Source of the DNA: a virus
Lineage: Duplodnaviria > Caudoviricetes
Strand: one strand, 5' to 3'
IMG/VR virus record: IMGVR_UViG_3300049485_000101
Location: 1 to 38,492 of that record
Length of the DNA: 38,492 nucleotides
Shown in pieces: positions 861 to 38,492 of this stretch. Position 1 is the stretch's first letter. The number at the start of each line of letters is the position of its first letter. The notes under the pieces were generated by a model. That model had not been told where the DNA came from and searched no databases. It saw only the letters and a program-made list of their open reading frames with translations. The position numbers were made by a program, and so were the translations under genes.

Positions 861-1031
861 ATGACTGACGAAAAAAACAAAAATTCATTACCTAGCGCGG
901 CAGAATTTCTTAAATTTCTAAAAGAAAATCCTTTGTCTGCATATCCTTCTGAAGAATTAAATAATGTGGATGATAATAAAAAAGAATTTTTAAAAGATGC
1001 TTGCAATGTTAAACTAACAGAACAAGACTAG
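861..1031 (+). CDS. Hypothetical 56-aa protein (MTDEKNKNSLPSAAEFLKF...)
   Basis: GGAG RBS; converges on the terL stop; below the ORF-track length cutoff. Confidence 0.55.
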   Translation: MTDEKNKNSLPSAAEFLKFLKENPLSAYPSEELNNVDDNKKEFLKDACNVKLTEQD

Positions 1032-2593
1032 TCCCTCTTATTCCTAGCCATACCTAGATTCATTCTATTTTTAACAGTTTGATTTAATCCCATCATGATA
1101 TTTTTTCTTGCTTCTTGTGGTTTGTTTATGTACATATCTTTGAATGTATTTTCCATGAGTGCTAGTTTTATTCCGTCTGCGAAACAATCCGCGATATCAT
1201 CAAAACGGTGCGTCATTGCAGGGTTGATCTTAGTCATGTGATCAATGCACATTTGGTAATGACGTGCACCTCGCGTGAATGATACACGCTTGGAGGCAAT
1301 GTATGGCTGGATTTCAAGGAATCGTTGAGCCTTTGAACCGCTTGCCCTTGTGCGCTCAATTTCCCTTATCTGCATACCACGGAATTTCTGCAACACACTC
1401 ACAAGTGTGACGCCAGTTGATTTCTTTTCGATAGCGGCAATCATGGGTGGTTTTTCGTGGGTTGAGCAAGATGAGTAAAAGTCTATAAAGGAACTTTCCA
1501 AATCTTTTGGTTCTACACGTAACTCAACGCAATCCAAAGAATGAAGCCCTAATAGTCCTGTCTTGCGATCATTTTCTTCGATCTCATATATTCCCCAAAA
1601 TGCAAATGCTGTTGCGTCATTCCACGATTTTGACGTTTCTGCGGTATCGGCAGTGATGAATGTCATAAGAATTTTTGGGTCTTCTTCTAACAAGACAAAC
1701 CAGTCTTTTTGATACAGACTACCCCCTGCGCTCACAGGGTCTTGCTGGTATTGCGAGTAGAAAACGTATGGGTCAAATTTCTGCTTGTTCAGCAACATTT
1801 CAAGCGAATTGACTTCTGGATACATAACATTTCCAGCATCGTCGATACTTTTGATAATGATCCGTTCCCATTCATATCCATCATTACCTTTCAAAAGATA
1901 ATCACATAGATCGCTTTCATGTACTCGTTGACCGATAAACACAATCGGAACTTGTTCACTTCTGACGCGCTGTTGTAGAGTCTCGCGGTAATTAGTTATA
2001 ACTCCCTCGCGTATAACTTCGCTCGCGGCTTCGTCTGGCTTAATGGGATCATCTATCCATAAAATTCCACTGAAACGATCAACCCCTGGCAATCCAGCGT
2101 CTAGCCCTGTAACCGTACCTGCGCTACCAATAGCCGCCACCATCCCGCCATGTGTGGTTTGGAATAGTTCTTTTCCACGTGCATCGTGTCTGATTTCAAC
2201 ACCAAAAAGGTATCGGTATTCAGGTAACTGAATTATTCTGCGAATGATTTCTGTATGTTTTCGAGACAAATCTTTACTGTAAGAGACGTACAAAAAACGA
2301 CTGTCAGGATATTTTGCGAGTGCCCATGCAGTACAAAATGATGCAAAGGTACTTTTTCCGCTACCAGGGCTTAGATTCAACATTAATCTTTGAGATTGTA
2401 TTTGTAAATTTACTGCGCGAGTCAAGGCACGACAGACGATTACTTGGTGCGATTCACGGCCAACTGGATGGCTGACAAGGTAATCCCTATTAGTTAGTAT
2501 CTTGTAAAAAAACTTTGTGAACTCAAACAAGGAACCCTTGAATTTTGCAGCAAGTTCGGCGCGATTATCTTCGTGTATGATGATTTCAGTCAT
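1028..2593 (-). CDS. terL: Terminase large subunit
   Basis: Walker A SPGSGKS, Walker B LWIDDPIK, FIGQRVHESD, QYQQDP, nuclease TADTA and FDDIADC. Confidence 0.95.
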   Translation of the reverse strand: MTEIIIHEDNRAELAAKFKGSLFEFTKFFYKILTNRDYLVSHPVGRESHQVIVCRALTRAVNLQIQSQRLMLNLSPGSGKSTFASFCTAWALAKYPDSRFLYVSYSKDLSRKHTEIIRRIIQLPEYRYLFGVEIRHDARGKELFQTTHGGMVAAIGSAGTVTGLDAGLPGVDRFSGILWIDDPIKPDEAASEVIREGVITNYRETLQQRVRSEQVPIVFIGQRVHESDLCDYLLKGNDGYEWERIIIKSIDDAGNVMYPEVNSLEMLLNKQKFDPYVFYSQYQQDPVSAGGSLYQKDWFVLLEEDPKILMTFITADTAETSKSWNDATAFAFWGIYEIEENDRKTGLLGLHSLDCVELRVEPKDLESSFIDFYSSCSTHEKPPMIAAIEKKSTGVTLVSVLQKFRGMQIREIERTRASGSKAQRFLEIQPYIASKRVSFTRGARHYQMCIDHMTKINPAMTHRFDDIADCFADGIKLALMENTFKDMYINKPQEARKNIMMGLNQTVKNRMNLGMARNKRD

Positions 2594-3119: not shown

Positions 3120-3308
3120 ATGACTGATAATCGTGAACAACTTTTGACGTTAGCAAAAGAGATCAAGTCTGAACGTGAAGAAATAGACTTGTTAAGGGAA
3201 GATTTAAAGACACGAAAGAACTTATTGAAGCACAAGGAATCTGAATATTTTTCATATTCTGTACAAGAATTTTCAAGGCAAAATGAAAGGACATCGAACC
3301 ATGTTTAA
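3120..3308 (+). CDS. Small coiled-coil protein (paralogue 1)
   Basis: GGAAGGA RBS; LAKEI...LK..ESEY shared with next ORF. Confidence 0.7.
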   Translation: MTDNREQLLTLAKEIKSEREEIDLLREDLKTRKNLLKHKESEYFSYSVQEFSRQNERTSNHV

Positions 3309-3471
3309 AGAATTAACAGAGTTATATAAACTGGCAAAAGATATTGAAGAATCAAAAGAATATTTAAAAGATGATGAAAAGGAATTGAGGCACGAAAGAA
3401 TGCGTTTGAAACGGCTTGAATCAGAATATTGCCAAAAATCACTTGAGACTTTAAAGAAGTTGAAGAAATAG
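3301..3471 (+). CDS. Small coiled-coil protein (paralogue 2)
   Basis: AAAGGA RBS before ATG 3301; LAKDI...LK..ESEY. Confidence 0.7.
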   Translation: MFKELTELYKLAKDIEESKEYLKDDEKELRHERMRLKRLESEYCQKSLETLKKLKK

Positions 3472-3505
3472 CCGTGATTGACTTGTGTATGAAATGTTTG
3501 TACAC

Positions 3506-3572
3506 AAAAAAAGGCCAGTCTTTGGTGGACTGACCTTTAGCAGTTAATATTCCGTTGGCTTGGAGATATTAT
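3506..3572 (-). ncRNA. Putative small RNA with anti-SD 5' end and intrinsic terminator
   Basis: Minus strand TTGACT(3605-3600)-16-TATGAT(3583-3578); RNA starts near AUAAUAUCUCC; terminator stem AAAGGTCAGTC/GACTGGCCTTT with a G-U pair only on the minus strand, then T-run. Confidence 0.55.
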
Positions 3573-3625
3573 GTGTAATCATACACTACATAAAACTCAA
3601 GTCAATGAAAAAAATAAGGAGTTTT

Positions 3626-4018
3626 ATGTCAAAATATGCGGAATCCTCAAAACGTGTTCAAATAGTGATGTGGTTATTTTATGAATCAAGATTAGAAAAT
3701 CTTGATGAAGATTTTTACATGCGATTAATTACGGAAGATCCCGAGTTTTTAAAAAATAAAAAAGAATCAGACGAATGGAAACCAGAGTGTGAATGTGGAT
3801 GTATATGCAATGCACCATTTGATTATAATTCTGTTCGATTCTTTCACGAATATAACCCTATCGGAGTATCTTATCCAATTTCAGATAAAGATTGGGAATA
3901 TATTGAACCTGATTGGATTCATTTTCTTTTGAAAGAAAAATCAAGTAACAGTCATTTTTATAAAAGAATGAAAGGGAGACCATGGTTTAAAGAAGAATTA
4001 CAAAAATATAATATATAG
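3626..4018 (+). CDS. Hypothetical protein
   Basis: TAAGGAG RBS before ATG 3626; CECGCIC motif. Confidence 0.7.
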   Translation: MSKYAESSKRVQIVMWLFYESRLENLDEDFYMRLITEDPEFLKNKKESDEWKPECECGCICNAPFDYNSVRFFHEYNPIGVSYPISDKDWEYIEPDWIHFLLKEKSSNSHFYKRMKGRPWFKEELQKYNI

Positions 4019-4019
4019 A

Positions 4020-4090
4020 AAAAAAAAGATCAGTCTTTTGAACTGATCTTTTTCTTTTATATGAACCCAAACTACCACGAAAGGACTCAA
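4020..4090 (-). ncRNA. Putative cis-antisense RNA over the replication-initiator RBS
   Basis: Minus-strand TTGACT(4125-4120)-18-TATAAC(4101-4096) inside the first rep codons; ends at hairpin 4021-4053 plus T-run. Confidence 0.55.
4021..4058. terminator. Bidirectional intrinsic terminator
   Basis: AAAAAAAGATCAGT-cttttga-ACTGATCTTTTT with A and T runs on both sides. Confidence 0.75.
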
Positions 4091-4091
4091 A

Positions 4092-5138
4092 ATGAGTTAT
4101 ACAAAAAATCCTAAAGACAAGTCAACTAAAAAAAATAAATTAGATTTTCTTGATAAAATTAAGTTTTTTTCAATACCACCAACGATATTTAAATATAAAT
4201 TAAATCCTACCGAAATTCTTTTTGTCAGTATTGTTTTTCATTTTAAGGACACAAATAACGGATGTTATTTATCAAACGAACAATTTTACACAATGATGGG
4301 TGTCTCTAAAAATACTTTTTTACGTACAAAAGTTAAAATTATTAGCAGTGGATTTGTAACTGTCAAAGAAAAATCCAAGGGTTTTTGGACTGAATGTTTA
4401 ACTTTATCCGATGATATGAGGGAATTATTTAACAGTCCCAAAATGGAACAAGGAATTTTAGAGAACAGTGCCAAATTGGCACCGTTTGAATATGAATACA
4501 GTCCCAAATTGGAACAGAACGGTGCCAAATTGGAACAGAACGGTGCCAAATTGGAACCTAATAACTGTATTAATAATAATAATAATAATAATGTGTGTGA
4601 TCCATATAGATCTAGCGCGCGTGCGCGCGAGGAAAACACACACACACAGAAAACAGTTGAAGACAAAATCCAAAAGGCAGTCTCCAAAGAGTTCATGGAC
4701 ACTGCAACACTAGTTGAAACCCTCAAGCCTCACATTGTCCATAATGATCAGAAAGTGAGTTTCGTTAGAAACGAATTGTTGGATCATATAAAAATGACTG
4801 GCGAAGATTTATTCCTCCTCGATTCGTATATGAGACAAAAACGATTAAACATAAATTATGCAAATATAGCCTCTAAAACGAAGATAGAATCAGTTTTGAA
4901 CGATTACTTAGATCAAGCTAAAAAAGTTCAATCACAGTCAAAAGAATCAAAATCCGAGGTATTTTCTAATGACTACTATAAAAAATCAGTAGAAAAATTG
5001 GCTTATATTGAGATTAATGGAGAGACATATCTTAAAAAAGACTTAGAAAGGTTGAAAGAAACAAACTTTGACAAGTACAAACAATTAATGGCCACAGGAG
5101 ATACTCCTATGAATGAACAAGTTTCAGTAGCCAATTAA
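4092..5138 (+). CDS. Replication initiator (N-terminal winged-HTH, lambda-O-like organisation)
   Basis: LNPTEILF..NGCYLSNEQFYTMMGVSKNT..L...GFV HTH pattern followed by an iteron-encoded repeat linker and poly-Asn. Confidence 0.8.
   Translation: MSYTKNPKDKSTKKNKLDFLDKIKFFSIPPTIFKYKLNPTEILFVSIVFHFKDTNNGCYLSNEQFYTMMGVSKNTFLRTKVKIISSGFVTVKEKSKGFWTECLTLSDDMRELFNSPKMEQGILENSAKLAPFEYEYSPKLEQNGAKLEQNGAKLEPNNCINNNNNNNVCDPYRSSARAREENTHTQKTVEDKIQKAVSKEFMDTATLVETLKPHIVHNDQKVSFVRNELLDHIKMTGEDLFLLDSYMRQKRLNINYANIASKTKIESVLNDYLDQAKKVQSQSKESKSEVFSNDYYKKSVEKLAYIEINGETYLKKDLERLKETNFDKYKQLMATGDTPMNEQVSVAN
4431..4592. repeat. Replication origin: five iterons plus AT-rich (AAT)n tract
   Basis: Copies of about AACRGTSCCAAAWTGGMAC start at 4431, 4464, 4497, 4518, 4539; followed by TAATAATAAT tract. 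Confidence 0.85.
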
Positions 5139-5214
5139 ATGCAAAAGGCAGTCTTTAAGAGGAAAATACAGGATCACTAAATGAAAATAGGTACAGAATC
5201 CAAAACAAGGCAAC

Positions 5215-5298
5215 AAACAGCCTCGAGGTTGAATCATAATAACATTTTGGTACAAAGTCATGAGACGTGTTAAAATAATTCAACCACGGGCTTATTTT
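5215..5298. repeat. Imperfect inverted-repeat element, copy 1
   Basis: AAACAGCCTCGAGGTTGAAT...ATTCAACCACGGGCT; left end matches 15477-15496 at 19/20. Confidence 0.6.
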
Positions 5299-5311
5299 AA
5301 AGTAATTAAAT

Positions 5312-5545
5312 ATGAATAAAATTGTAGACGATCCGTTATGGGATCCGACCGTTCGGGAATACCTCCGTCTAAAGGAACGCGGTGAGATTTTGCACAGGCT
5401 TAATATTCTGATCAAGGACATGGAAGAAAAGGCAGTCATCAAAGAAAAGAAAAACAGATTGCCACCTACCTTTGAAGACTACCTTGAATTTGTTAAAAAA
5501 GAGGAAGAACTGAAAAAAAATGATAGGATTCCTTTAAAAAATTAA
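5312..5545 (+). CDS. Hypothetical protein
   Basis: 77-aa charged ORF downstream of rep. Confidence 0.6.
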   Translation: MNKIVDDPLWDPTVREYLRLKERGEILHRLNILIKDMEEKAVIKEKKNRLPPTFEDYLEFVKKEEELKKNDRIPLKN

Positions 5546-5554
5546 GAGGATTTT

Positions 5555-5764
5555 ATGAATTTTAAAGAATGTCCAACGTGTGAAATTGAACTTTGTTGCC
5601 TTTTTTCTGACGAACTTGAAGATTTTCCCCATAATGCAATTGAATATGTTCAACAAAGTGATATAGAAAAATACAGGATGAAATATAGATTGAAAGATGA
5701 TGAAGGTAATGTTATTTATTTTTGTGACGCTTGCATGATGTTTGTGAAGTATGAAAATGAATAA
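5555..5764 (+). CDS. Small zinc-finger-like protein
   Basis: GAGGA RBS; CPTC...CDAC. Confidence 0.65.
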   Translation: MNFKECPTCEIELCCLFSDELEDFPHNAIEYVQQSDIEKYRMKYRLKDDEGNVIYFCDACMMFVKYENE

Positions 5765-5807
5765 CATTGTCCTTGACAGCATGGTTTTTAAATTTTAATG
5801 TGTGATT

Positions 5808-5906
5808 CTTGCATGTTCATTATATTAACTTAGTGGATAATGAACGTGTTTTAATTGTGGCATTGCGCGATCTTTTGTCATGCACTGATCGCGTGGTGTT
5901 ATTTTT
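5808..5906 (+). ncRNA. Putative small RNA A1 (two hairpins)
   Basis: TTGACA(5773)-17-TAATGT; stems 5811-5849 and 5859-5900 close fully only with G-U pairs on the + strand; ATTTTT tail. Confidence 0.65.
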
Positions 5907-5956
5907 GCAAAGATTAAAAACTTGTTGATTATTAAAATATCTCTGCTATAACACTT

Positions 5957-6026
5957 ACAACGTGTCCAGAAGCCATGTTACACCCGCAAGTTTTGTTCAT
6001 TTATCACTTGTGGGTTTTATTTTTTT
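5957..6026 (+). ncRNA. Putative small RNA A2 (hairpin plus terminator)
   Basis: TTGATT-16-TATAAC with TGn extension; AACGTG/CATGTT stem; ACCCGCAAGT-tttgttcatttatc-ACTTGTGGGT plus T-run. Confidence 0.6.
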
Positions 6027-6041
6027 ATAATATAATTTTTA

Positions 6042-6100
6042 TACACCTCCTCAGTGTAAAGTTTCCCGATCAGTATCCTTTCCTGATCGGGTTTTATTTT
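6042..6100 (+). ncRNA. Putative small RNA A3 (hairpin plus terminator, anti-SD loops)
   Basis: TTGTGG(6008)-17-TATAAT(6031); TACAC-ctcctca-GTGTA; CCCGATCAG-tatcctttc-CTGATCGGG plus T-run. Confidence 0.65.
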
Positions 6101-6115
6101 AAATGGAAATATTTT

Positions 6116-6319
6116 ATGTCAGAAGAAAAAATTTATACCGAACAAGAATTTAAAACAAAAATTCTTGAAAACAATCAGTCTCATTTGTTTAAATCAATTG
6201 ATAGACTTGATAATAGTATTAACTCTTTAAATAATAAAATTGATACTTTTAAATATTGGACTTTAGGATTAATTTTTGGATTGTATGGATTAATGATTAC
6301 TTATTTTGTGACAAAATGA
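6116..6319 (+). CDS. Small coiled-coil protein with C-terminal TM helix (possible holin or membrane protein)
   Basis: MSEEKIYTEQEF...IDRLDNSINSLNNKID..WTLGLIFGLYGLMITYFV; the 5975 start runs through the sRNA hairpins and is unlikely. Confidence 0.65.
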   Translation: MSEEKIYTEQEFKTKILENNQSHLFKSIDRLDNSINSLNNKIDTFKYWTLGLIFGLYGLMITYFVTK

Positions 6320-8064: not shown

Positions 8065-8209
8065 TTTCAGCCCCCTCTTTTTTTTCTTCTAATTTTTTTA
8101 AACGGTCGCTTTCGATTTCCATATATTTTGAAAATTTTTCGTTTAGTTCTTGGAGGGCTTTTGAATAATTATTCAGATCTTCAAGAAATTTTTCTATATA
8201 TGTGTTCAT
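8057..8209 (-). CDS. Hypothetical 50-aa protein (MNTYIEKFLEDL...)
   Basis: AGGA RBS; fills the gap between exonuclease and ATPase. Confidence 0.55.
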   Translation of the reverse strand: MNTYIEKFLEDLNNYSKALQELNEKFSKYMEIESDRLKKLEEKKEGAENV

Positions 8210-8219
8210 TTTTTTATCC

Positions 8220-9059: not shown

Positions 9060-9258
9060 AGTGATCTAGTCCTTTCCAAATATAAATAACCTCTACAAAA
9101 TTAAATTTTCTGATCTCAGCGGGCTTTTTATTGACGTTAAGCTGTTTCATGCGTCGGTAAATATTAGGTTTATCTTTACCAACGATTTTGGACATCTCGC
9201 CAAGTGTATACTCTCCAGCAGGGATCAATTTTAACCAATCCTTTGTCTCTTGTCTCAT
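9034..9258 (-). CDS. Small HTH DNA-binding protein
   Basis: AAAGGAC RBS before ATG 9258; YTLGEMSKIVGKDKPNIYRRMKQL HTH pattern. Confidence 0.6.
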   Translation of the reverse strand: MRQETKDWLKLIPAGEYTLGEMSKIVGKDKPNIYRRMKQLNVNKKPAEIRKFNFVEVIYIWKGLDHYDHKTTAR

Positions 9259-9786: not shown

Positions 9787-9819
9787 AAATTTTTCCTTTC
9801 AAGTTAGTGTGACCAAAAA

Positions 9820-10399: not shown

Positions 10400-10900
10400 T
10401 TAATTTAATTGATTTTCTAATATGTCTTTTGCGTACAATAAGATATTGTCAACGTTATCACGTTTTTTATTTCTAACTAATACTTTAACTAATGCGTCAA
10501 AAGTAATAACTTTTGAAACTACATCACAACTATCAACACCGTTAAAATTTTCAAAATTCACAAAAAAACATATGTCTACACTTTTTTCAGTATGCAAATC
10601 TCTGAAACTTGAAATTGTGACATATTTGTCTTCATTGTATGAATCGAAGATTACATCAAATCCGTTGATTTCCCAATTTTTAAAACGAAAATGAAACTTT
10701 TTTAAAAATATCAATAAAATTGAAAGTTTATCGGAAGTCATATTAAAAATATTTTTGTACAAATTCGATTTTTTTAGTTCACTCCAAGATTTATAACTAT
10801 CAGTTTTTATTTTTTCGTTAAGTTTTTCGATTTTTACATTAAGTTTTTCTATGCGAGATATTGCTTCTAAAAAATATGTCTTCGTATAAGTATCGTTCAT
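10400..10900 (-). CDS. Hypothetical early protein
   Basis: AAAGGACAC RBS; 166 aa. Confidence 0.7.
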   Translation of the reverse strand: MNDTYTKTYFLEAISRIEKLNVKIEKLNEKIKTDSYKSWSELKKSNLYKNIFNMTSDKLSILLIFLKKFHFRFKNWEINGFDVIFDSYNEDKYVTISSFRDLHTEKSVDICFFVNFENFNGVDSCDVVSKVITFDALVKVLVRNKKRDNVDNILLYAKDILENQLN

Positions 10901-10927
10901 TTGTTTTGTGTCCTTTATTTGTTAAAA

Positions 10928-11167: not shown

Positions 11168-11226
11168 CTTTTTCGTTTCCTTTCTCGCCCATTTTTGAGC
11201 TTGTGTTTGTTTGTGACTGACTATCA

Positions 11227-11487: not shown

Positions 11488-11715
11488 ATGTCAAACAAAT
11501 CAAGGTATTGGCTTGATCTGATCTACAAAATATTTATCGCAATTTTTGGAATACTTTTAGGCACTCATGCTTACAAAGACAAAGTCGATCATGACGCAAT
11601 GATCGAAGCGATCTACGGCTTGCAAATTGAGTCAACAGAGTTAAGAAAAGAATTGTTAGAAAGCGGTGTCACATATCAACAATCGGCAAGTTTTGAGGAT
11701 TCAACTAATGCTTAA
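11488..11715 (+). CDS. Small single-TM membrane protein
   Basis: GAGGT RBS; LIYKIFIAIFGILLG TM helix; overlaps the protease start. Confidence 0.7.
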   Translation: MSNKSRYWLDLIYKIFIAIFGILLGTHAYKDKVDHDAMIEAIYGLQIESTELRKELLESGVTYQQSASFEDSTNA

Positions 11716-12601
11716 AATACTTATATTTCTTGGATTTTCAATGTTTTTTGCATCATGTAATTATGATGCAAGTTCGTCAACATTAGTAAAATTAACTGAC
11801 GATAAAAAGATATCATTGATAAAATTTCCAAATGCTCAAAATATTGAAATAAAGCATAAATTCGAGTTTTTAGAAGATGATTACTCAAACGGCATACACT
11901 CTTTTACTAGAGACCTTGGTATGCAAAGTGTTCCTGTACTTGATCAAGGATCAAAAGGTACTTGTGTAACATTTGCGTCAACAGCGGCGCTTGATGCTTT
12001 AATAGCAAAGTCTGACTTTGTGAGCCAGCAATGCTCACTCGAGCTTGATAAGTATCTAGGGCAGGACTACTGGAACGGTGCATACTATCCGTCGCAAATA
12101 GTTGATCCAATAAAAAAATACGGCGTGGTTGCTCACGCAAAATGCCCGCACCAATATCCATCTTCACTCTATAAAATGGCTCCAACAAAATACACTGCGC
12201 TTGCAGACAAGGATAAGTCTGTAAAGGTTAAAGATGTGCAAATTTTATATTCAGTTGATCCTACGGTTGGGGACGTGCGCGCGGCAATTAATAGAGGACA
12301 CCGCGTTTTGTTTGGCTTTGTGATTGATAGCTCGCAGTCAGTCGCGATCCGTGGCTTCGATCTAACAGTTGATGGCAAAGCATACAAAGGTGGCCTCTGG
12401 GCTTGCAAACAAGGCGATATTGATGTCTGCAAACGCTATGACGCAGGACATGAAGTTTTAATTGTTGGCTATGATGATGATCAACAATTGTTAAAAATAA
12501 GGAACAGTTGGGGCGTGTCAGTAGGGGAGAATGGCGACTATTATATGTCATATAAATTCTTTGAGGATCGTAGCTTGGACATGACTGAAATATGGCTGTA
12601 A
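11708..12601 (+). CDS. Lipoprotein, papain-like (C1) cysteine peptidase
   Basis: GAGGA RBS; MLKILIFLGFSMFFAS-C lipobox-like; VLDQGSKGTCVTFA (Gln, Cys), AGHEVLIVGYDD (His), IRNSWG (Asn). Confidence 0.92.
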   Translation: MLKILIFLGFSMFFASCNYDASSSTLVKLTDDKKISLIKFPNAQNIEIKHKFEFLEDDYSNGIHSFTRDLGMQSVPVLDQGSKGTCVTFASTAALDALIAKSDFVSQQCSLELDKYLGQDYWNGAYYPSQIVDPIKKYGVVAHAKCPHQYPSSLYKMAPTKYTALADKDKSVKVKDVQILYSVDPTVGDVRAAINRGHRVLFGFVIDSSQSVAIRGFDLTVDGKAYKGGLWACKQGDIDVCKRYDAGHEVLIVGYDDDQQLLKIRNSWGVSVGENGDYYMSYKFFEDRSLDMTEIWL

Positions 12602-12843
12602 TATGCAATATTTGCCTTGATCGAAAGAAAGTATACAAATTTCTTTCTGGCTACTCATTAGTCGATAACGGCGGGTGGGGAAAGATAGATTGTCCAAATT
12701 GTACTGTAAACAAATCTGAAATTAAAGAGGGTGTCATGGATGACATTCCTAAAATTAAGATTGAACAAATTAAACAAAAGGATGTCATGGATGACAAGCG
12801 GAAAAGTTCACGAGCCAAACGACAAAATAAGGCAAACCGTTAG
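12592..12843 (+). CDS. Small zinc-finger protein
   Basis: CNIC...GGWGKIDCPNC with basic tail. Confidence 0.6.
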   Translation: MAVICNICLDRKKVYKFLSGYSLVDNGGWGKIDCPNCTVNKSEIKEGVMDDIPKIKIEQIKQKDVMDDKRKSSRAKRQNKANR

Positions 12844-13156
12844 AGACCTTAAGGCTTTTGGTATCACACAAGATCAGATTTCTAAGTATCTTAAAATCGG
12901 GAGAGACACGCTAACAAGGCACTATGAGCATGAGCTTGAGACTGGCAAAATACATGCTATATATAAAGTGGCTGGTGCGTTGTATCATTCAGCAGTTGTA
13001 AAAGGTAATGTTTCAGCTCAAATATTCTTCTTGAAAACTCAAGGCGGTTGGCGCACGGCTGATGGTCTCGACAATTCGATCCAAAACGCCGAGATTCTCG
13101 AAAAGATAAATCAAGTCAGCAAAGCACTCGAAGAAAAATACAAACGCGATTATTGA
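12791..13156 (+). CDS. terS: Putative terminase small subunit (HTH)
   Basis: GITQDQISKYLKIGRDTL.RHY..EL..GK, VAGALY..A..GNVSAQIFFLKTQGGWR, a typical TerS pattern. Confidence 0.8.
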   Translation: MTSGKVHEPNDKIRQTVRDLKAFGITQDQISKYLKIGRDTLTRHYEHELETGKIHAIYKVAGALYHSAVVKGNVSAQIFFLKTQGGWRTADGLDNSIQNAEILEKINQVSKALEEKYKRDY

Positions 13157-13235: not shown

Positions 13236-13271
13236 AAATTGAATTGAATGAAAATTGATTTAAATCAAGAA

Positions 13272-13377
13272 ATAAAAAACCCACCGAGAACCCCCAATGG
13301 GTTTAAAATGGAGGCCGAAACTCCACTTGCAATCCTCTGCGAGTATGTACAGAGGATATCCACTATACTCTAGGCAA
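13272..13377 (-). ncRNA. Putative small RNA B2 (three hairpins, last a terminator)
   Basis: TGTGT-TACAAT extended -10 (13393-13383); stems ATCCTCTGT/GCAGAGGAT, AGTGGAG/CTCCATT, AAACCCATTGGG/CTCGGTGGGTTT with minus-strand G-U pairs; T-run. Confidence 0.65.
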
Positions 13378-13402
13378 TTTATATTGTAACACAAACATGT
13401 AA

Positions 13403-13464
13403 AATAAAAAACGCGCCTATCTGACTAAGCGCGTCTTCCAACCTTTTAGGATTTCACATGGAGA
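13403..13464 (-). ncRNA. Putative small RNA B1 (anti-RBS 5' seed plus terminator)
   Basis: TGTGT-TATAAT extended -10 (13480-13470); CUCCAUGUGAAAUCCU then GACGCGCTTA/TAGGCGCGTT stem plus T-run. Confidence 0.6.
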
Positions 13465-13487
13465 CTTTTATTATAACACAATTTTTA

Positions 13488-13557
13488 GGACACACAAGAT
13501 CGCGATCTGTGTGTCTTTTTTATGGGGGACACGAAAACGGTTTCCATGTCCCCCATG
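13488..13557 (+). terminator. Two strong hairpins (first followed by a T-run)
   Basis: GGACACAC-aagatcgcgatct-GTGTGTCT-TTTTT; ATGGGGGACA...TGTCCCCCAT. Confidence 0.55.
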
Positions 13558-13560
13558 ACA

Positions 13561-13604
13561 AGTTACTTTCAATTACTCTCAATTACTTTCAATTACTCTC
13601 AATT
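13561..13604. repeat. 10-bp tandem repeat x4 (AATTACTYTC)
   Basis: agttactttc aattactctc aattactttc aattactctc aatt. Confidence 0.85.
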
Positions 13605-13637
13605 TTTATTATGATCATTTTTTTATGAGGTATTAAA

Positions 13638-13949
13638 ATGGATTTAGAAGAATTTTATAATAAATGTAGATATGATTTAAATAACTCTGCTACTTTGGAT
13701 GAGATTAAAACAATAAAATCTATACATGATATGGCTCGCGCATATTCAAATGGTTATTTTACATTGCTTGGATACGGTGATCATTACCGATTTTATTTGG
13801 GAACAACAAGCCAACTTTTGGATTCATCTTCACCTTCATTTTTTTCAGATTTTATGGGTGAAGGTAGTAGTATCGAATATGCTGTACTAGATTACATTAA
13901 AAAATGTGGCAAGAAACATACTTGCCCTTCTTGCAAACATAGATTTTAA
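13638..13949 (+). CDS. Hypothetical protein (paralogue of next)
   Basis: GAGG RBS; YRFYLG, GSSIEYAV, C-terminal Cys cluster. Confidence 0.75.
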   Translation: MDLEEFYNKCRYDLNNSATLDEIKTIKSIHDMARAYSNGYFTLLGYGDHYRFYLGTTSQLLDSSSPSFFSDFMGEGSSIEYAVLDYIKKCGKKHTCPSCKHRF

Positions 13950-14440: not shown

Positions 14441-14539
14441 AATCTCAACCAATATCAGTTAACCTTAACTTAATCTTAAAAAATCACATGACAATTATAT
14501 AAACAAATGTATAAATAAATTTATTTGAATGAGGTGATT

Positions 14540-14956
14540 ATGATTGATATATCCAGTATTGTGTTCCAAGGTAAGCGAAAATTTCATGGAAGTTTTGGTC
14601 GGAAAAAGGGAAATGAAATCCATTTTAGACTTAAAAATGCAAAGCGTGGCGGAAATTGTTTTGATCTTAAATTATATATTGGTAGTGACATTGCCAAGAA
14701 AATATCCCTTCGAGATGGTGACAATCTAATCGTATCCCTTGATCACAATTACTGGTATTTGAAGGTCGATAGTTCTGGGTACAAAGCTAGATATGAAAAA
14801 AAGAGAGGATTGTTTACTGTTCAATTTCCTTTCTCATTTTCAGGAAACCCAACGGATGGATCAGTTTTAATCTCTCCTTTCCATGTTGAAACCGATTCAG
14901 ATCAAAGAGTCCTTGCCATGAACGTCAGTTCATACCTTAAAAGCAACATTAACTGA
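14540..14956 (+). CDS. Basic protein, possible AbrB-like fold (paralogue 1)
   Basis: GAGGTG RBS; LYIGSDIAKKISLRDGDNLIV. Confidence 0.7.
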   Translation: MIDISSIVFQGKRKFHGSFGRKKGNEIHFRLKNAKRGGNCFDLKLYIGSDIAKKISLRDGDNLIVSLDHNYWYLKVDSSGYKARYEKKRGLFTVQFPFSFSGNPTDGSVLISPFHVETDSDQRVLAMNVSSYLKSNIN

Positions 14957-15041: not shown

Positions 15042-15470
15042 ATGATTGATCTGTCAAACGTGGTTTTCAACGGTCGCATTAGATATTACAATGGTGTTCT
15101 ACGTGGAAAAAAACTCAGTAATCAAGTAAATTTTCGAGTCAAGAAACCAAAAGACAAATCAAAATTTTTTGAACTTGTTTTGTACATTGGTGATGAGTAC
15201 GCGAAAAAAATGGGTCTGCAAGAAGGTGATCGTATGTCAACAAATTTCGACAATAATAATTGTTGGTATTTTAAAGTCGATGATGGTGGTTACAGGGTGG
15301 CGAAAGATAAAAATAGAAATTTATTTTACATATATTTGCCATACAAGACTAATGCTAACATAACTGAATTTATTACAGTCGCTCCATTTCACATAGAAAC
15401 ATGTCCAAATCAGAAAGTTATGGCTATCCATGCCACTCCATACCTAAAAACACCAACAAATCCAAAATAA
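15042..15470 (+). CDS. Basic protein, possible AbrB-like fold (paralogue 2)
   Basis: LYIGDEYAKKMGLQEGDRM; collinear with previous ORF over full length. Confidence 0.7.
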   Translation: MIDLSNVVFNGRIRYYNGVLRGKKLSNQVNFRVKKPKDKSKFFELVLYIGDEYAKKMGLQEGDRMSTNFDNNNCWYFKVDDGGYRVAKDKNRNLFYIYLPYKTNANITEFITVAPFHIETCPNQKVMAIHATPYLKTPTNPK

Positions 15471-15556
15471 AGCCCAAAACAGCCTCGTGGTTGAATTTAA
15501 ACACTTTTTTGATATGAACATATTAAACGGTTTATTTTAAATCGTTGTAGAGGCTG
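15464..15556. repeat. Imperfect inverted-repeat element, copy 2
   Basis: AAACAGCCTCGTGGTTGAATTTAAA...TTTAAATCGTTGTAGAGGCTG. Confidence 0.6.
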
Positions 15557-24679: not shown

Positions 24680-25030
24680 ATGGTATCTCCATATTTAGCA
24701 CAACAGACAGTAGACGACTTTGGTCACAGATTCTCAGATATAAAATTTAGTGTTGATCTTGATCCGTCAACAAATACAATTTTAACAATTCCCGATGATT
24801 CCAAACGATATAAAATGGTCATAAAAGCATTTCCTTTCGATGGATTTGTGTGGGTTGCACTTAATGCAACGGCAACACCACCATCAGGAAATTCTTTTGC
24901 AAGCACATCTTCCGAGTGCTTGAGTTTATTTGTAACATGTAGGGAAGTTGTAGCTGGAGATCAGATTAACTTTTTTTCAACAAATGTAAATCCACAAGCC
25001 GTTAGCGTCGTACTTTATTCTTTGCTTTGA
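24680..25030 (+). CDS. Putative small virion protein
   Basis: AAAGGA RBS; beta-rich, VWVALNATATPP. Confidence 0.6.
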   Translation: MVSPYLAQQTVDDFGHRFSDIKFSVDLDPSTNTILTIPDDSKRYKMVIKAFPFDGFVWVALNATATPPSGNSFASTSSECLSLFVTCREVVAGDQINFFSTNVNPQAVSVVLYSLL

Positions 25031-29761: not shown

Positions 29762-31012
29762 ATGGCAGTCCCAAATCAATATTTGCAACAGGTACAGACC
29801 TATAATGAGTCTAACCTTGCAATGCTTTTAAACATGTACTGTTTTCTAAGTACAGCTAACAAGAAATTTGAAAAGTTCAACGATGATATCCCGAAACAAT
29901 TGGGCGATTCAGTACTTTTTGATCTACCGCCTAGAATGAATTCAACTAACTCTTTAGTTGTTTCTTTTCAAGCGGCCAATCAGCGTTTTAGGACACTGAC
30001 AGTCGATCAACCAGGATCAGTTGCATACTCATTCACTGCACAGCAATTTATTTTCAATGTGCGTGATTACATGGATAAGTTTGGGCGATCTGCTGTTTCT
30101 CAACTTGGTTCCAAGATTGAACAAGATGTTGCGTCTGTTGCAGAATCACAGACCTTCAAATTTTTTGGAGATGGCATTACGCCAATTTCGACTTATTTAC
30201 AATTAGCAACCGCTTTGGCTCGTCATGACGAATTTGGCGCGGCAAAAACCAATAAAAAGGGTTATTTGTCCAACATGACTTATCCCGCAATCATCAATAG
30301 TGGGTTAAGCCAATTTGCTCCGCGTCGCAATGATCGTGAGGCAATGAGCTGGGAGATCGGTGAATTTGGTGAATGTGAATGGTATCGTTCAAATCTTCTT
30401 AAAGTACATCGCGCTGGTACTGTTGGAAATACTCCCCCTGCACAATTAACAGTTGTATCAACAACACTCAATGCGGCTGGTGAAGTTATTGCAATCACAT
30501 TTAGTGGTGCGCCTGCAAGTGATCCGAACGCAATCAAGAAATATGACAAGTTCATGTTTTTAGATGGTTTTGTCCGTAACATTAGGTTCTTAACATTTAT
30601 CGGTGGAAGTCCGTCCGAACACCCTGTCCAATTTGCAGCGGCTGCTGATGCGGCATCAAATGCTGGTGGACAAGTTACTGTTAGTCTAACTCGTCCATTA
30701 CTTGCTGGTATTCCAAACGACGAAGCTCTTGGTATTACAGATCAAATCGTAGCAAACATGAAAGTAGTTGTGTTGCCAGATCATAGATGTGGATTGATCA
30801 CATCTGGCGGACCTCTAATGCTGGCCCTTCCACGCCTTCCAGAGGAAATACCCTATCCGACAAGCGTTGTGACTGATCAAGATTCAGGCGCATCCCTTCG
30901 GACATATATGGGTTCGTTATTCGGTCAAAATCAACGTGGTATGGTGACTGATGCTATATGGGGCAAAACACTTGTTGACGAATATTCTACAATGATCGCT
31001 TTGCCAGTATAA
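29762..31012 (+). CDS. Major capsid protein (P22 coat-protein family)
   Basis: 416 aa; GDSV.F..P.R, LTVDQ, AVSQLGSKIEQDVA, SG.S.R, D..WG; central insertion domain. Confidence 0.9.
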   Translation: MAVPNQYLQQVQTYNESNLAMLLNMYCFLSTANKKFEKFNDDIPKQLGDSVLFDLPPRMNSTNSLVVSFQAANQRFRTLTVDQPGSVAYSFTAQQFIFNVRDYMDKFGRSAVSQLGSKIEQDVASVAESQTFKFFGDGITPISTYLQLATALARHDEFGAAKTNKKGYLSNMTYPAIINSGLSQFAPRRNDREAMSWEIGEFGECEWYRSNLLKVHRAGTVGNTPPAQLTVVSTTLNAAGEVIAITFSGAPASDPNAIKKYDKFMFLDGFVRNIRFLTFIGGSPSEHPVQFAAAADAASNAGGQVTVSLTRPLLAGIPNDEALGITDQIVANMKVVVLPDHRCGLITSGGPLMLALPRLPEEIPYPTSVVTDQDSGASLRTYMGSLFGQNQRGMVTDAIWGKTLVDEYSTMIALPV

Positions 31013-33487: not shown

Positions 33488-33856
33488 ATGTCTGAAACAT
33501 TAAGAGAAACAATACAAAAAGAGATGGCAGAAATATCCCTTGACGCCATTTGTGGTGTTGATAGAGACATTCCACTTGATGAGAGACCATACAGAATTTT
33601 TGAACTATTCAGTCATACGATGGATGTTTATCAATTCTTTTTGTATCAAGAAGTGTATGACAACAAGCGTTTTGAATTATTAAGCGAGTTAACATTTGTT
33701 GAAAGGCTTCGCTTTGATTTTAATTCAAGGCGCGGTGCAACAACATCAACACTTGACGCTTTGTACAGAGAAAAACAAAACTTCCCCAAGAATGTCTACA
33801 GTATAAATTTTGGAAAAAAACTGAAAGGGTGTGTAAATGACGCGAGAAATTATTGA
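33488..33856 (+). CDS. Hypothetical protein
   Basis: 122-aa ORF with AGGT RBS. Confidence 0.6.
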   Translation: MSETLRETIQKEMAEISLDAICGVDRDIPLDERPYRIFELFSHTMDVYQFFLYQEVYDNKRFELLSELTFVERLRFDFNSRRGATTSTLDALYREKQNFPKNVYSINFGKKLKGCVNDARNY

Positions 33857-35943: not shown

Positions 35944-38061
35944 TCATTTCGTTATGTTCTCTAATTTCTTGTTTATATGTTCGCCAATCTTAACGGCGGA
36001 GTCAACAGCGCTGCGCTCGTTTTCACTGACTATTTTTGCAGCCTTTAATTCCTGTTCAATGCCTACATTTTGAATGTTGGCTAGGGTATCAATGCGCTTT
36101 GTTTCCGCCTCCATAGCTTTAATTGACACGTTTGCAGCATCATTCTTTGCCTTGGCTTGTACAAGCATTGCGCCAACCTCGCCTTCTGTCGGGCTTTGAA
36201 TTTGTTTTTGCAGTGCGGCCATACTCATAGCCTGCTCTTGTGCTTGTTGTTGCAATTGTTGTTGTTGTGCCTGCATTGCTTGTTGTTGTTGAGCCTTTTG
36301 ACGTTCCATCCAAAAATTTGCTTTCTCTTTGAGCTGATCAATGCCACGAATATCAAGATTATCAAGTATAACAGGCAAGCCTTCTTCATTAAAGAACTGG
36401 CCAAATCCTTGGTTTGCTTGGCTCATGGCTATCACCGTTTGCAATGATATCTCCTTTTGCATCGAGAAGTTCACACCAGCCTCGACCTTAACTTGCAAGT
36501 GATTGGGATCGTAGTTCATGTATAATGATCCCTTTTTATTGATCTCGTAATAACTGCGTTTTCCGTCAGGAAGTAAAATTGGAAGTGATCTAGGTGTGCG
36601 GTAGTATTTTGGAATTAAATCAACAATAATTTCTGCAACCCTATTCAGACCTTTTATATAACCGATCACGTATGGCATGCTTGCATTGTTACTTTGAATT
36701 GCAGATCGTGCAAAAGAAACGCCCGACATATCCGCCCTATTTAATCCTGCTGCGGCATCATAGTTTCCAAGAATAGTTTGCATTTGCTGATCAGTTGACG
36801 AAAAAGTGTTTGGAATTTCGCCAGGTATTGGTGCGCGTTGTACTTCTCTTGGTGCTTGCAACTGGACATTTGGGTCATTATTTAGAAATTGATTAAATAC
36901 AAGTGTATCAGCCTTCTGAACATTCTGGTATGCCTCTTGGTAATCCTCAGGAATGGCTTCAATCGGAACAATGAACTTGTGTTGAATTGTATTTTCAATT
37001 TCGTTGGCAAGAGATTGTCCCGCCACATTTTTCAGACGTTGCAATCCCTCCCCATGATACACGTACGGCCTCGTCATTTGAGTGTACGAACCACCGTCCT
37101 TTAGAAAGACGCTGTTACCATCAACAAACACAAGCGGGAGATGGTTATAATCAGTCTCGATGTAATCAAGAACCCTGTTTTCACATACTCTATATCGGCA
37201 AATTGTTTGAAGGTTGGTTATGCGTTCAGAAACAATGACAGGAACCTGTTCAATGAAATTTGTTTGTTTCCATTCTTCGACAAATTTCTCATAGTGTTTT
37301 TTGACAATGACTTGGCCTGTCGAGAGTTTGCAGATTTTCTCGCGCTTCTTTTTCTTTTCGTAGTAATCGCAAACAAGGACAATTTTTTCATTGTCATTTT
37401 GGTAGCTCCAATCGAATCCAGAGAGGCTTCGAGTGAATTTCATTTCCCTCGCGGCTTCTGCTCCAAATTCTTCCTCGAACTTGTCTTTTGACATTGGATA
37501 TAGTTCGGCACAGAATTTACCGTCACCTTTGTGGCTTTTACGTGCCAAGGGGTCAAATATCGTCAAGGTTGGATCAAAACAACGCTCCACATATATATTC
37601 TGTTCCATTGACATGCTGTTCACATAGTCAGTAAAAACACGCATGACGCTGAATCCGCCAGCCAACAGATCGGAATAAATATTGTAGTCAAGCATGTCGT
37701 TTGAGCCTTCCGAGAAGACACACCGCAAATGGGCTTCGATGACATCGAGTGTTTCGCTGAAATTCCGATCCAACATGTTGACTGGAAGGCCGTCTGCGGC
37801 GCGAACTGTTAGGGCAGGCTCTTGTTTGGCAAATTCCCCACGCAACCTTGATATGATTGATTCAAGGATGTTAAATTCAATTGAGGGGCGTCCGTTATCT
37901 GCTAACGTCGCGGCCTCATCATCAGTGATGGAGCTTTTAAAGACAAAACGCATGAACTTGTTGTATCGTTCGACGTTTTGACAAAAGTATTGACGCGCGT
38001 CGTCTACAGACTTTTTGATTTCATCAAGACGTTCTGCATATTTTTTAGCTAATTCTTCCAT
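35944..38061 (-). CDS. Portal protein (P22 gp1-like, with C-terminal barrel)
   Basis: 705 aa; RP.IEFN.L, FDPLAR..DG..C, SGV, I.DLIPKYY..PR, Gln-rich C-terminal coiled coil. Confidence 0.92.
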   Translation of the reverse strand: MEELAKKYAERLDEIKKSVDDARQYFCQNVERYNKFMRFVFKSSITDDEAATLADNGRPSIEFNILESIISRLRGEFAKQEPALTVRAADGLPVNMLDRNFSETLDVIEAHLRCVFSEGSNDMLDYNIYSDLLAGGFSVMRVFTDYVNSMSMEQNIYVERCFDPTLTIFDPLARKSHKGDGKFCAELYPMSKDKFEEEFGAEAAREMKFTRSLSGFDWSYQNDNEKIVLVCDYYEKKKKREKICKLSTGQVIVKKHYEKFVEEWKQTNFIEQVPVIVSERITNLQTICRYRVCENRVLDYIETDYNHLPLVFVDGNSVFLKDGGSYTQMTRPYVYHGEGLQRLKNVAGQSLANEIENTIQHKFIVPIEAIPEDYQEAYQNVQKADTLVFNQFLNNDPNVQLQAPREVQRAPIPGEIPNTFSSTDQQMQTILGNYDAAAGLNRADMSGVSFARSAIQSNNASMPYVIGYIKGLNRVAEIIVDLIPKYYRTPRSLPILLPDGKRSYYEINKKGSLYMNYDPNHLQVKVEAGVNFSMQKEISLQTVIAMSQANQGFGQFFNEEGLPVILDNLDIRGIDQLKEKANFWMERQKAQQQQAMQAQQQQLQQQAQEQAMSMAALQKQIQSPTEGEVGAMLVQAKAKNDAANVSIKAMEAETKRIDTLANIQNVGIEQELKAAKIVSENERSAVDSAVKIGEHINKKLENITK

Positions 38062-38170: not shown

Positions 38171-38492
38171 ATGAAATTTGAATTTGAGGATGCAGTCGAA
38201 TACGTTCTAAAATGGGAGGGATCGGAATATGTTGATGATCCCGATGACAGGGGGGGTGCATCGAAGTACGGTATAAGTTCTCGTGATCATCCTGATGTTG
38301 ATATTAAAAATCTAACACGCGAACAGGCGATAGAAATTTATAGAAGTGACTATTGGGAGCCGAATCAGGATATATTTGATTGTTTTGAAGGTACTACCAA
38401 TATTTGTTTATATAAAAAATTTAAAAAAAAGATTTTTGATTGTCTTGTAAATATTGGAAGAAAAAATACTATTTTATTACTTCAGCGTGCTT
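38171..38492 (+). CDS. Endolysin, glycoside hydrolase family 108 (5' part; continues across the origin to 348)
   Basis: GGAGG RBS then MKFEFEDAVEYVLKWEGSEYVDDPDDRGGASKYGIS...LTREQAIEIYRSDYW, the GH108 EG..DP.D.GG.TxYGI motif; not in the ORF track. Confidence 0.92.
   Translation, partial: MKFEFEDAVEYVLKWEGSEYVDDPDDRGGASKYGISSRDHPDVDIKNLTREQAIEIYRSDYWEPNQDIFDCFEGTTNICLYKKFKKKIFDCLVNIGRKNTILLLQRA
38366..38492. repeat. Terminal direct repeat, right copy (circular-assembly overlap)
   Basis: Exact copy of bases 1-127. Confidence 0.95.

What the first reader, a model, noticed from the sequence alone, without database searches (positions are those of the whole stretch)
5773..6100. Tandem array of three small-RNA genes with anti-SD and anti-AUG loops
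Seen: three consecutive units of sigma70 promoter, hairpin, terminator hairpin and T-run. Four stems close fully only through G-U pairs on the + strand, which argues for selection on RNA structure. Loops are CUCCUCA and UAUCCUUUC (complementary to GAGGAG and GAAAGGAUA SD sequences) and UUUUGUCAUGCACU and UUUGUUCAUUUAUC (complementary to ATG-ACA-AAA and ATG-AAC-AAA starts). I saw no matching targets in the phage by eye. Inference: a cassette of trans-acting antisense RNAs that block translation initiation of host (possibly defence) or competing-phage mRNAs, with interchangeable loops as guides.
Basis: partly seen in the sequence, partly recalled or inferred. Interest (0 to 1): 0.8.

Follow-up and report, generated by a model that had tools for sequence, protein, structure and literature searches.

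The report
Three stacked phage antisense-RNA genes
A 330-base gene-free stretch of an uncultured podovirus holds three back-to-back promoter-like/hairpin/terminator units that are likely small-RNA genes, and two of them match the translation starts of the phage's own early genes better than those of its likely host, so they would most likely act as a built-in brake on early phage proteins; no transcript, relative or target has been shown.

Summary
The anatomy is confirmed: six hairpins in three units (fold z -4.9, -4.0, -5.1), ten G-U pairs and no mismatch in the + strand stems, T-runs, and a 9/12 sigma70-like promoter before each unit (shuffle p 0.01-0.02 each; none passes the strict scan). 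The phage is P22-like, 38.5 kb; its host is likely Silvanigrellaceae, and 0 of 5 such genomes had Hfq. Unit 3 copies the 16S rRNA tail. Its best start-region hits are four leftward early genes. Unit 2 has two segments that match the leaders of ardA and its orphan neighbour (post hoc p about 0.03). Unit 1 has no start-site target. In host proxies, 0 of 21 near-exact loop matches were gene starts. No single best target beats shuffles (p 0.12-0.78). No Rfam family, homologue, covariation or RNA run was found, and the stems differ between units, so 'interchangeable guides' is unsupported. A second hairpin cluster lies at 13270-13560. The scan has noted similar anti-RBS phage RNAs on other DNA. Verdict: real structured-RNA cassette; likely self-directed translation-blocking sRNAs (0.4); new variant of a known kind.

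The parts
5773..5801 (+). Predicted promoter of unit 1: TTGACA (5773-5778), 17 nt, TAATGT (5796-5801)
   Evidence: Sequence; 9/12, shuffle p 0.021; not listed by strict scan
5807..5907 (+). Unit 1 predicted RNA (about 100 nt): hairpin U1a 5811-5849 and hairpin U1b 5857-5902 with loop UUUUGUCAUGCACU, then T-run; may also end the upstream 5312-5764 transcript
   Evidence: z -4.85 on +, -2.93 on -; 8 G-U pairs; U1b listed as terminator-like
5925..5952 (+). Predicted promoter of unit 2: TTGATT, 16 nt, TG-n-TATAAC
   Evidence: 9/12 plus extended -10, shuffle p 0.013; lacks T at -7
5957..6024 (+). Unit 2 predicted RNA (about 68 nt): weak hairpin U2a 5959-5979 holding CGUGUCC, terminator-like hairpin U2b 5982-6015 with loop UUUGUUCAUUUAUC, T-run
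   Evidence: z -3.95 on +, -1.39 on -; loop 74% unpaired, GUGUCC 40% unpaired
6008..6036 (+). Predicted promoter of unit 3: TTGTGG (inside the U2b 3' arm), 17 nt, TATAAT
   Evidence: 9/12, shuffle p 0.023
6042..6099 (+). Unit 3 predicted RNA (about 58 nt): hairpin U3a with loop CUCCUCA and terminator-like hairpin U3b with loop UAUCCUUUC; both copy parts of the 16S rRNA 3' tail
   Evidence: z -5.13; loops 98% and 90% unpaired; 16S tail from L197-L202
10375..10395 (-). Candidate target of unit 2: leader and start of ardA (GGACACG at -13..-7; AAATGAACG across the start)
   Evidence: ArdA PF07275 E 4e-28; two contacts -13.1 and -8.8 kcal/mol duplex energy; inferred
10893..10913 (-). Candidate target of unit 2: leader and start of the orphan 166-aa gene 10900-10400 (GGACAC; AAATGAACG)
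   Evidence: no homologue among candidates of near length; inferred
8203..8211 (-). Candidate target of U2b loop: start of 50-aa gene 8209-8057 (AAATGAACA, 9 Watson-Crick pairs)
   Evidence: inferred
9070..9077 (-). Candidate target of U3b: SD GGAAAGGA of the RecE-like exonuclease gene
   Evidence: Rank 10 of 1085 genome-wide sites; inferred
9794..9800 (-). Candidate target of U3b: SD GAAAGGA of gene 9786-9310
   Evidence: Rank 11 of 1085; inferred
11178..11184 (-). Candidate target of U3b: SD GAAAGGA of gene 11167-10928, first gene of the leftward early operon
   Evidence: Rank 13 of 1085; inferred
8071..8077 (-). Candidate target of U3a: SD GAGGGGG of the Sak4-like recombinase gene
   Evidence: Rank 14 of 1085; inferred
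6116..6319 (+). Downstream neighbour: 67-aa coiled-coil plus C-terminal hydrophobic protein of a viral hypothetical family (weak XhlA-like lead); abuts the convergent ssb stop
5555..5764 (+). Upstream neighbour: 69-aa Cys-rich ORF, last gene of the rightward replication-gene run
   Evidence: no family at cut-off

Best explanation
The stretch holds three stacked promoter-like/hairpin/terminator units that likely make three small RNAs (about 100, 68 and 58 nt), which would bind ribosome-binding regions through their open hairpin loops, most likely those of the phage's own leftward early operon (anti-restriction ArdA, recombination genes). Shown: the hairpins, the + strand wobble bias, the T-runs, the identity of unit 3's loops to the 16S tail and the short matches to early leaders. 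Inferred: host sigma70 polymerase transcribes each unit; the pre-folded loops seed pairing without Hfq; unit 3 would act as a broad anti-SD RNA that prefers the GAAAGGA-type SD of early genes; unit 2 would make two contacts on the ardA and 10900 leaders (spacer after the SD, and the start codon); the result would be to damp early proteins after entry or during a carrier state, and those of a related superinfecting phage. Unit 1 has no identified target; it may address a host or foreign mRNA, or mainly end the upstream transcript.
For: Structure and strand bias. Positioned promoter matches, p 0.013-0.023 each. Host 16S tail GAUCACCUCCUUUCU shares 8 nt with U3a and 7 nt with the U3b loop. Unit 3: 10 of its top 50 accessible genome-wide sites lie in start regions against 3.4% of all 1085 sites, and the best four are leftward early genes 9059, 9786, 11167, 8064. 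U3b binds the 10 early starts better than the other 45, p 0.017. The complemented motifs are richer at phage than at host-proxy starts: GAAAGGA 5 of 54 vs 4 of 439 (p 0.001); AAATGAAC 3 of 54 vs 1 of 439 (p 0.005), all three in the early operon. Unit 2 two-motif match: 2 of 54 phage starts (ardA, 10900) vs 2 of 439 host starts; shuffles with CAU fixed give at least one gene in 2.7%, two in 0.1%. No Hfq match in 0 of 5 host-order genomes, with controls ringing in 5 of 14. A phage sharing the C1 peptidase (G001) has a three-hairpin promoter-to-terminator unit (z -3.2) whose anti-SD loop region best matches the start of its own divergent replication gene (p 0.03 for one window of the loop, 0.14 for a window shifted by 2 nt).
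Against: No transcript evidence and no homologue, hence no covariation. For none of six segments does the best start-region hit beat shuffles (p 0.12-0.78), and the early-operon preference is significant for 1 of 6 segments only, not after correction. The two-motif thresholds were chosen after seeing the match, and the ardA and 10900 leaders are near-copies, so they count as about one event. With CAU fixed, three 8-nt start matches arise in 26% of U2b shuffles. Any anti-SD loop favours genes with strong SDs, and phage early genes have them; G002 uses GAAAGGA at early genes too without such a cassette in its 89% complete record. GUGUCC is only 40% unpaired. In the genome-wide scan unit 2's top 13 sites are not at starts, and unit 1 has 1 start among its top 50. 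Of 17 other viral starts with the same leader pattern, none has a complementary hairpin loop in trans within the fetched flanks (the one hit is the leader's own reverse strand). The three promoters fail the strict scan.
Confidence: 0.4

Rival explanations
1. Same small RNAs, but aimed at host or competing-phage mRNAs: unit 3 would lower host translation broadly, units 1 and 2 would hit particular host starts.
For: U3a loop is complementary to host-proxy starts beyond 98 of 100 shuffles. U1b has no phage start target, so a target outside the phage is open. U2b has an 8-nt match across the start in 16 of 439 host-proxy starts.
Against: 0 of 21 near-exact matches of U1b and U2b in 14 host-order genomes are at real starts. 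ATGACAAAA and ATGAACAAA begin 0 of 439 host-proxy genes. The true host is not in hand, so strain-specific defence genes were not tested.
Confidence: 0.22
2. Stacked terminators and transcription insulators between two converging operons; the loops are incidental and any short RNAs are by-products.
For: The cassette sits where the rightward replication genes meet the leftward early operon. Long loops are common in host-proxy terminator-like hairpins (9 of 19 with 7 nt or more). Best-target tests are not significant.
Against: A positioned promoter match precedes each unit. Three of the six hairpins are 5' hairpins without a strong T-run. 0 of 19 host terminator-like loops has a 6-nt 16S-tail match, whereas unit 3 has two tail matches.
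Confidence: 0.17
3. Cis-acting control: the units pair with, or collide with, read-through from the leftward early operon, or units 2-3 form an attenuating leader for the 67-aa membrane protein 6116-6319.
For: No terminator-like site on - between ssb and 5225. An ATG at 5975 is in frame with 6116 through both terminators. The second cluster has a cis-antisense-like unit over an SD and ATG at 13458.
Against: The open frame is not unusual (p 0.09) and has no clear SD; top atlas look-alikes of the protein are 74-76 aa, near the short form. On - the loops open only 18- and 22-codon frames, and unit 3's SD-like strings have no start at a usable distance.
Confidence: 0.11
4. Decoy RNAs that bind a protein (an RNA sensor, nuclease or chaperone of host defence) or sponge other RNAs, with pyrimidine-rich loops as protein sites.
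For: No strong mRNA target; U1a's 3' arm is complementary to the U2b loop and its 5' arm resembles it (alignment p 0.026).
Against: The four loops share no common motif as protein decoys usually do (own knowledge); no repeat or Rfam match.
Confidence: 0.1

Closest known systems
Cuckoo / alpha-r14 sRNAs (NfeR1) of Alphaproteobacteria (PMC4615179 abstract and outline; PMC10746234 passages)
   Same: Short RNA of adjacent hairpins whose loops show anti-SD sequence; NfeR1 is described as Hfq-independent and blocks translation by pairing at the RBS. Unit 3 works like this on paper.
   Different: Cuckoo loops all carry CCUCCUCCC; unit 3 has two different loops (CUCCUCA, UAUCCUUUC). Phage-borne, three separate units, two with anti-AUG loops, no Rfam match.
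Phage antisense repressors of the phage's own genes: P22 sar, lambda OOP and aQ, 24B_1 (PMC12197685, parts 1-2 of 6 read); P1 C4 (PMC8201110 passages; its two-loop pairing is recalled)
   Same: Phage small RNAs that turn down the phage's own regulatory or early genes by pairing at or near translation starts.
   Different: Those are single RNAs, mostly cis-encoded or with one defined target such as an antirepressor. Here three unrelated units are stacked 2-5 kb from the candidate targets, with 7-9 nt seeds; no antirepressor, repressor or integrase was recognised among the 59 ORFs scanned; no C4 Rfam hit.
Host-directed phage sRNAs PreS, VpdS, DicF (PMC12197685, parts 1-2 read); satellite sRNA SviR (PMC10884466 passage)
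   Same: Trans-acting phage-borne sRNAs with short seeds.
   Different: PreS, VpdS and DicF are tied to Hfq in that review; Hfq was not found in the likely host group, and no host target was found here.
Staphylococcal sRNAs with C-rich loops (SprX, RNAIII, RsaE; functions recalled)
   Same: Loop-exposed UCC(C/U) seeds against SD sequences.
   Different: SprX model scores 21 bits against a cut-off of 80: resemblance only.

Membership tests
Cuckoo / alpha-r14 sRNA | 2-4 adjacent hairpins | tested here: met
   Unit 3 has two hairpins
Cuckoo / alpha-r14 sRNA | CCUCCUCCC motif in every loop | tested here: not met
   Loops are CUCCUCA and UAUCCUUUC; definition from PMC4615179 abstract
Cuckoo / alpha-r14 sRNA | Rfam model match | tested here: not met
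   No hit at gathering score or at E up to 10
C4 / CI antisense RNA | Rfam C4 model match | tested here: not met
C4 / CI antisense RNA | Linked icd-ant type operon as target | tested here: inconclusive
   No antirepressor family among 59 ORFs; many ORFs have no family
Trans-encoded antisense sRNA (general kind) | Own promoter and intrinsic terminator | tested here: inconclusive
   9/12 promoter matches, p 0.013-0.023, not passing the strict scan; hairpin plus T-run present
Trans-encoded antisense sRNA (general kind) | Discrete transcript | not testable with these tools
   No RNA holder listed
Trans-encoded antisense sRNA (general kind) | Accessible seed complementary to a target start region beyond chance | tested here: inconclusive
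   U3a and the unit 2 two-motif test positive; best-hit tests negative
Trans-encoded antisense sRNA (general kind) | Structure conserved with covariation | not testable with these tools
   No homologue found
Guide-RNA array (repeat scaffold with variable guides) | Repeated common scaffold | tested here: not met
   Pairwise alignment p 0.026, 0.22, 0.43; no shared stem family
Guide-RNA array (repeat scaffold with variable guides) | Adjacent effector protein | tested here: not met
   Neighbours are 69-aa and 67-aa proteins without nuclease or RNA-binding family

The most novel reading that the evidence does not exclude
The phage runs its early programme with a panel of protein-free, Hfq-independent RNA repressors: separately transcribed hairpin RNAs, stacked in two cassettes (5773-6100 and 13270-13560), whose loops address the phage's own early leaders, including a two-contact shut-off of the anti-restriction gene ardA, in place of a repressor protein; the same RNAs would give RNA-based immunity to related phages.
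Probability: 0.2. Interest if true: 0.8.

Novelty: new variant of a known kind. Interest (0 to 1): 0.5.

Why it matters
Few phage small RNAs have a known function, and a 2024 review says their role in lytic phages remains to be worked out (PMC10884466, passage read). A stack of 58-100 nt RNAs that turn down the phage's own anti-restriction and recombination genes without Hfq would be a compact RNA timing or immunity circuit in a phage group with no close isolate in the collection searched (best terminase identity about 31%). The units are small enough to test directly in a reporter assay. If they prove inert, the finding is a dense set of terminators.

Tried and rejected
Homologue searches all failed: blastn against 50,697 phage records, best E 0.9; viral contigs through the replication protein (0 loci), recombinase (9 loci), terminase (13 loci) and peptidase alignment (4 loci); metagenomes (78 loci); stem patterns gave 3, 81 and 44 stretches, all unrelated coding DNA or ordinary terminators. 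Whole-record searches of 5 and 9 related viral records gave only chance hits; five metagenome loci were not held and not searched. The syntenic-looking hit in G002 lies across coding DNA. The intergenic listing of 14 related records was cut in the output, so only part was read; no stacked cassette was seen in that part. No RNA holder listed; laying two DNA runs showed no variant, and one may be the source of the window. No prophage relative or spacer-like match in 34 host-order genomes. A crude count of promoter spacers in host DNA gave no signal. U1b's best genome-wide site, 12 bp at 33652-33663, is inside a coding region at an out-of-frame ATG and not beyond chance (p 0.11). U2b's best start-region duplex is gene 3120 (14 bp with a bulge, p 0.65). 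The likeness of U2a to the middle hairpin of the G001 unit is not significant (p 0.12). A shared-leader search (92 stretches, 17 start-like) found no complementary hairpin in trans. Rejected: coding explanation (only short or unsupported frames); DNA palindrome explanation for units 1-2 (wobble bias). Paper searches for such a cassette returned nothing relevant (0 papers; 1 each; no listed title on a Silvanigrellaceae phage); the library lacks most subscription papers, and no supplements were read.

Full report
Setting. The window is a complete 38,492-nt virus record with direct terminal repeats, GC 35%. Portal, terminase, head-closure and DNA-ejection hits make it a P22-like podovirus; no integrase or repressor family was recognised among 59 ORFs scanned. 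The cassette lies between a rightward run (3120-5764, with an O-like replication protein) and the end of a leftward early operon (11167 to 6320: ArdA, RecE-like exonuclease, Sak4-like recombinase, SSB), with one 67-aa ORF in between. The host is inferred, not shown: the best named relatives of the phage's C1 peptidase are from Silvanigrella, Fluviispira and Pigmentibacter (41-48%), and named SSB relatives are from Fluviispira and Bdellovibrionales. No prophage relative or spacer-like match was found in 34 genomes of that order.

Observation. The six hairpins and four quoted loops are real. Folding z-scores on + are -4.85, -3.95 and -5.13; on - they are -2.93, -1.39 and -5.06. The four stems of units 1 and 2 contain ten G-U pairs and no mismatch on +, which favours selection on + strand RNA; unit 3 has no wobble pair and is oriented only by its T-run and promoter. 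Each unit is preceded by a 9/12 sigma70-like match at a fitting distance (shuffle p 0.021, 0.013, 0.023; background 14 of 524 intergenic windows). The criterion was set after seeing the sites, and the tool's stricter scan lists none of them. There is no Rfam member.

Relatives. None was found despite scans of viral contigs, metagenomes, genomes and isolates. The closest related record, G002 (78% recombinase identity, 89% complete), has no such cassette in its listed intergenic regions. Covariation could therefore not be tested. The three units do not share a scaffold, so the idea of interchangeable guides on a common frame has no support. No RNA holder was listed, which says nothing either way.

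What the loops match. The 16S tail of Fluviispira multicolorata and of an Oligoflexia MAG reads GAUCACCUCCUUUCU. U3a contains CACCUCCU and the U3b loop UCCUUUC, so unit 3 shows both halves of the tail, 98% and 90% unpaired. I tested loops against 54 hand-picked phage starts and 439 starts called with a simple rule from 800 kb of two host-order genomes (G035, G031); the shuffle test used 60 of the host starts. U3a beat 98 of 100 shuffles on host and 99 of 100 on phage starts; U3b 82 and 94; U1b and U2b were average. Near-exact complements of the U1b and U2b loops in 14 host-order genomes (5 and 16 matches) never lay at an ORF longer than 45 aa.

Own-gene signal. GAAAGGA occurs at 5 of 54 phage starts and 4 of 439 host starts; AAATGAAC at 3 of 54 and 1 of 439, the three being early genes 8209, 10382 (ardA) and 10900. 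In a genome-wide scan with accessibility, 10 of unit 3's top 50 sites are start regions (3.4% of all 1085 sites), led by 9059, 9786, 11167 and 8064. Unit 2 has a second segment, CGUGUCC, that matches GGACAC(G) just behind the SD of ardA and 10900; only these two of 54 phage starts, and 2 of 439 host starts, match both segments, and shuffles with CAU fixed do so for at least one gene in 2.7%. Against this: thresholds were post hoc; the two leaders are near-copies; the loop match alone is common in shuffles (26% for three genes); no segment's best start-region duplex beats shuffles (p 0.12-0.78); only U3b prefers early starts (p 0.017, one of six tests); strong SDs are typical of early genes anyway; and unit 1 has no start target. 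A search for other viruses with the same leader gave 17 start-like cases, none with a complementary loop in trans.

Context that fits. Hfq was not found in 0 of 5 host-order genomes searched, while controls rang, so seeds held open in loops suit this host group, as described for the Hfq-independent NfeR1 (PMC10746234, passages). G001, a phage with the same peptidase family, has a 105-nt three-hairpin unit behind a TATAAT box whose anti-SD region best matches its own replication gene start (p 0.03 or 0.14 depending on the window); it is an analogue, not a shown homologue. The window itself has a second cluster of strong hairpins with promoter- and terminator-like sites at 13270-13560.

Mechanism. 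I judge it about 0.7 that the units are transcribed as small RNAs, and 0.4 that they are antisense RNAs acting mainly on the phage's own early operon: host polymerase would make them, the loops would seed pairing on SD and start codon, and ArdA and recombination proteins would fall after entry or in a carrier state. Rivals: host or foreign targets (0.22), terminators only (0.17), cis control or attenuation (0.11), protein decoys (0.10).

Comparison. It works like cuckoo/NfeR1 anti-SD RNAs (PMC4615179 abstract; PMC10746234 passages) and like phage self-repressing RNAs sar, OOP, aQ, 24B_1 (PMC12197685, parts 1-2 of 6) and C4 (PMC8201110 passages; loop mechanism recalled), but fails their membership tests. 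Searches for a described stacked cassette found none in a library that lacks most subscription papers; no supplements were read. Earlier unchecked notes of this scan describe anti-RBS hairpin RNAs on other phage DNA, some aimed at own early genes; I had reached the own-gene reading before seeing the latter (note), and they are not counted as evidence. Verdict: real, new variant of a known kind, interest 0.5.

Noticed in passing
window 13268-13565: Second dense hairpin cluster, the strongest-folding 330-nt region of the genome (z -7.0 on -). Minus-strand unit 13466-13395 behind TTGTGT-16-TGnTATAAT (z -5.0) and a three-hairpin unit 13372-13268 with a CAU-containing loop (z -3.8), both ending in terminator-like hairpins; two more hairpins at 13487-13558. 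No Rfam match.
   Followed up: partly
window 13446-13640: The 13466-13395 unit lies antisense over the SD (AGGA) and ATG of a 56-aa ORF (13458-13628) with a hydrophobic C-terminus, an internal + strand terminator-like hairpin (13487-13523) and a stop overlapping the SD of gene 13638: looks like an antisense-controlled leader/attenuator or a type I toxin-antitoxin pair. The open frame alone is not significant (p 0.08); no PHROG family.
   Followed up: partly
window 13563-13602: Four copies of a 10-nt unit TTACT(T/C)TCAA in tandem.
   Followed up: no
window 5215-5297 and 15475-15495: Repeated element AAACAGCCTCG(A/T)GGTTGAAT in two intergenic regions, with an inverted copy at 5268-5297; possible operator, promoter or recombination site.
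   Followed up: no
window 1028-2593, 12731-13156, 29762-31012, 35944-38061: Packaging and head genes are scattered and on both strands (small terminase 10 kb from the large one; major capsid opposite to portal), whereas related records keep terminase-portal-capsid in one direction.
   Followed up: partly
window 9861 and 11266 (- strand), 14488 and 14966 (+ strand): Early promoter-like sites share an unusually short spacing: (T/A/G)TGACA, 15-16 nt, TATAA.
   Followed up: partly
window 14534-14956 and 15042-15470: Two adjacent similar 140-aa ORFs, each behind a near-identical promoter-like site; weak AbrB-like lead for the second (E 0.011).
   Followed up: no
L195 6914-7018 (G001 24914-25018): Stand-alone three-hairpin promoter-to-terminator unit with an anti-SD loop region complementary (8 + 4 bp) to the start region of the divergent replication gene.
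   Followed up: partly
window 38171-38492 and 1-127: A glycoside hydrolase 108 lysozyme-like ORF begins at 38171 and runs into the terminal repeat (PF05838 E 7e-16).
   Followed up: no
window 11708-12601: Papain-like C1 peptidase with an N-terminal lipoprotein-like signal, in a family shared by many 33-41 kb contigs and by Silvanigrellaceae genomes; a useful host marker for this phage group.
   Followed up: partly
L192 545-589 and 951-997 (G002): Two copies of a palindromic hairpin element following two similar HTH-like ORFs.
   Followed up: no
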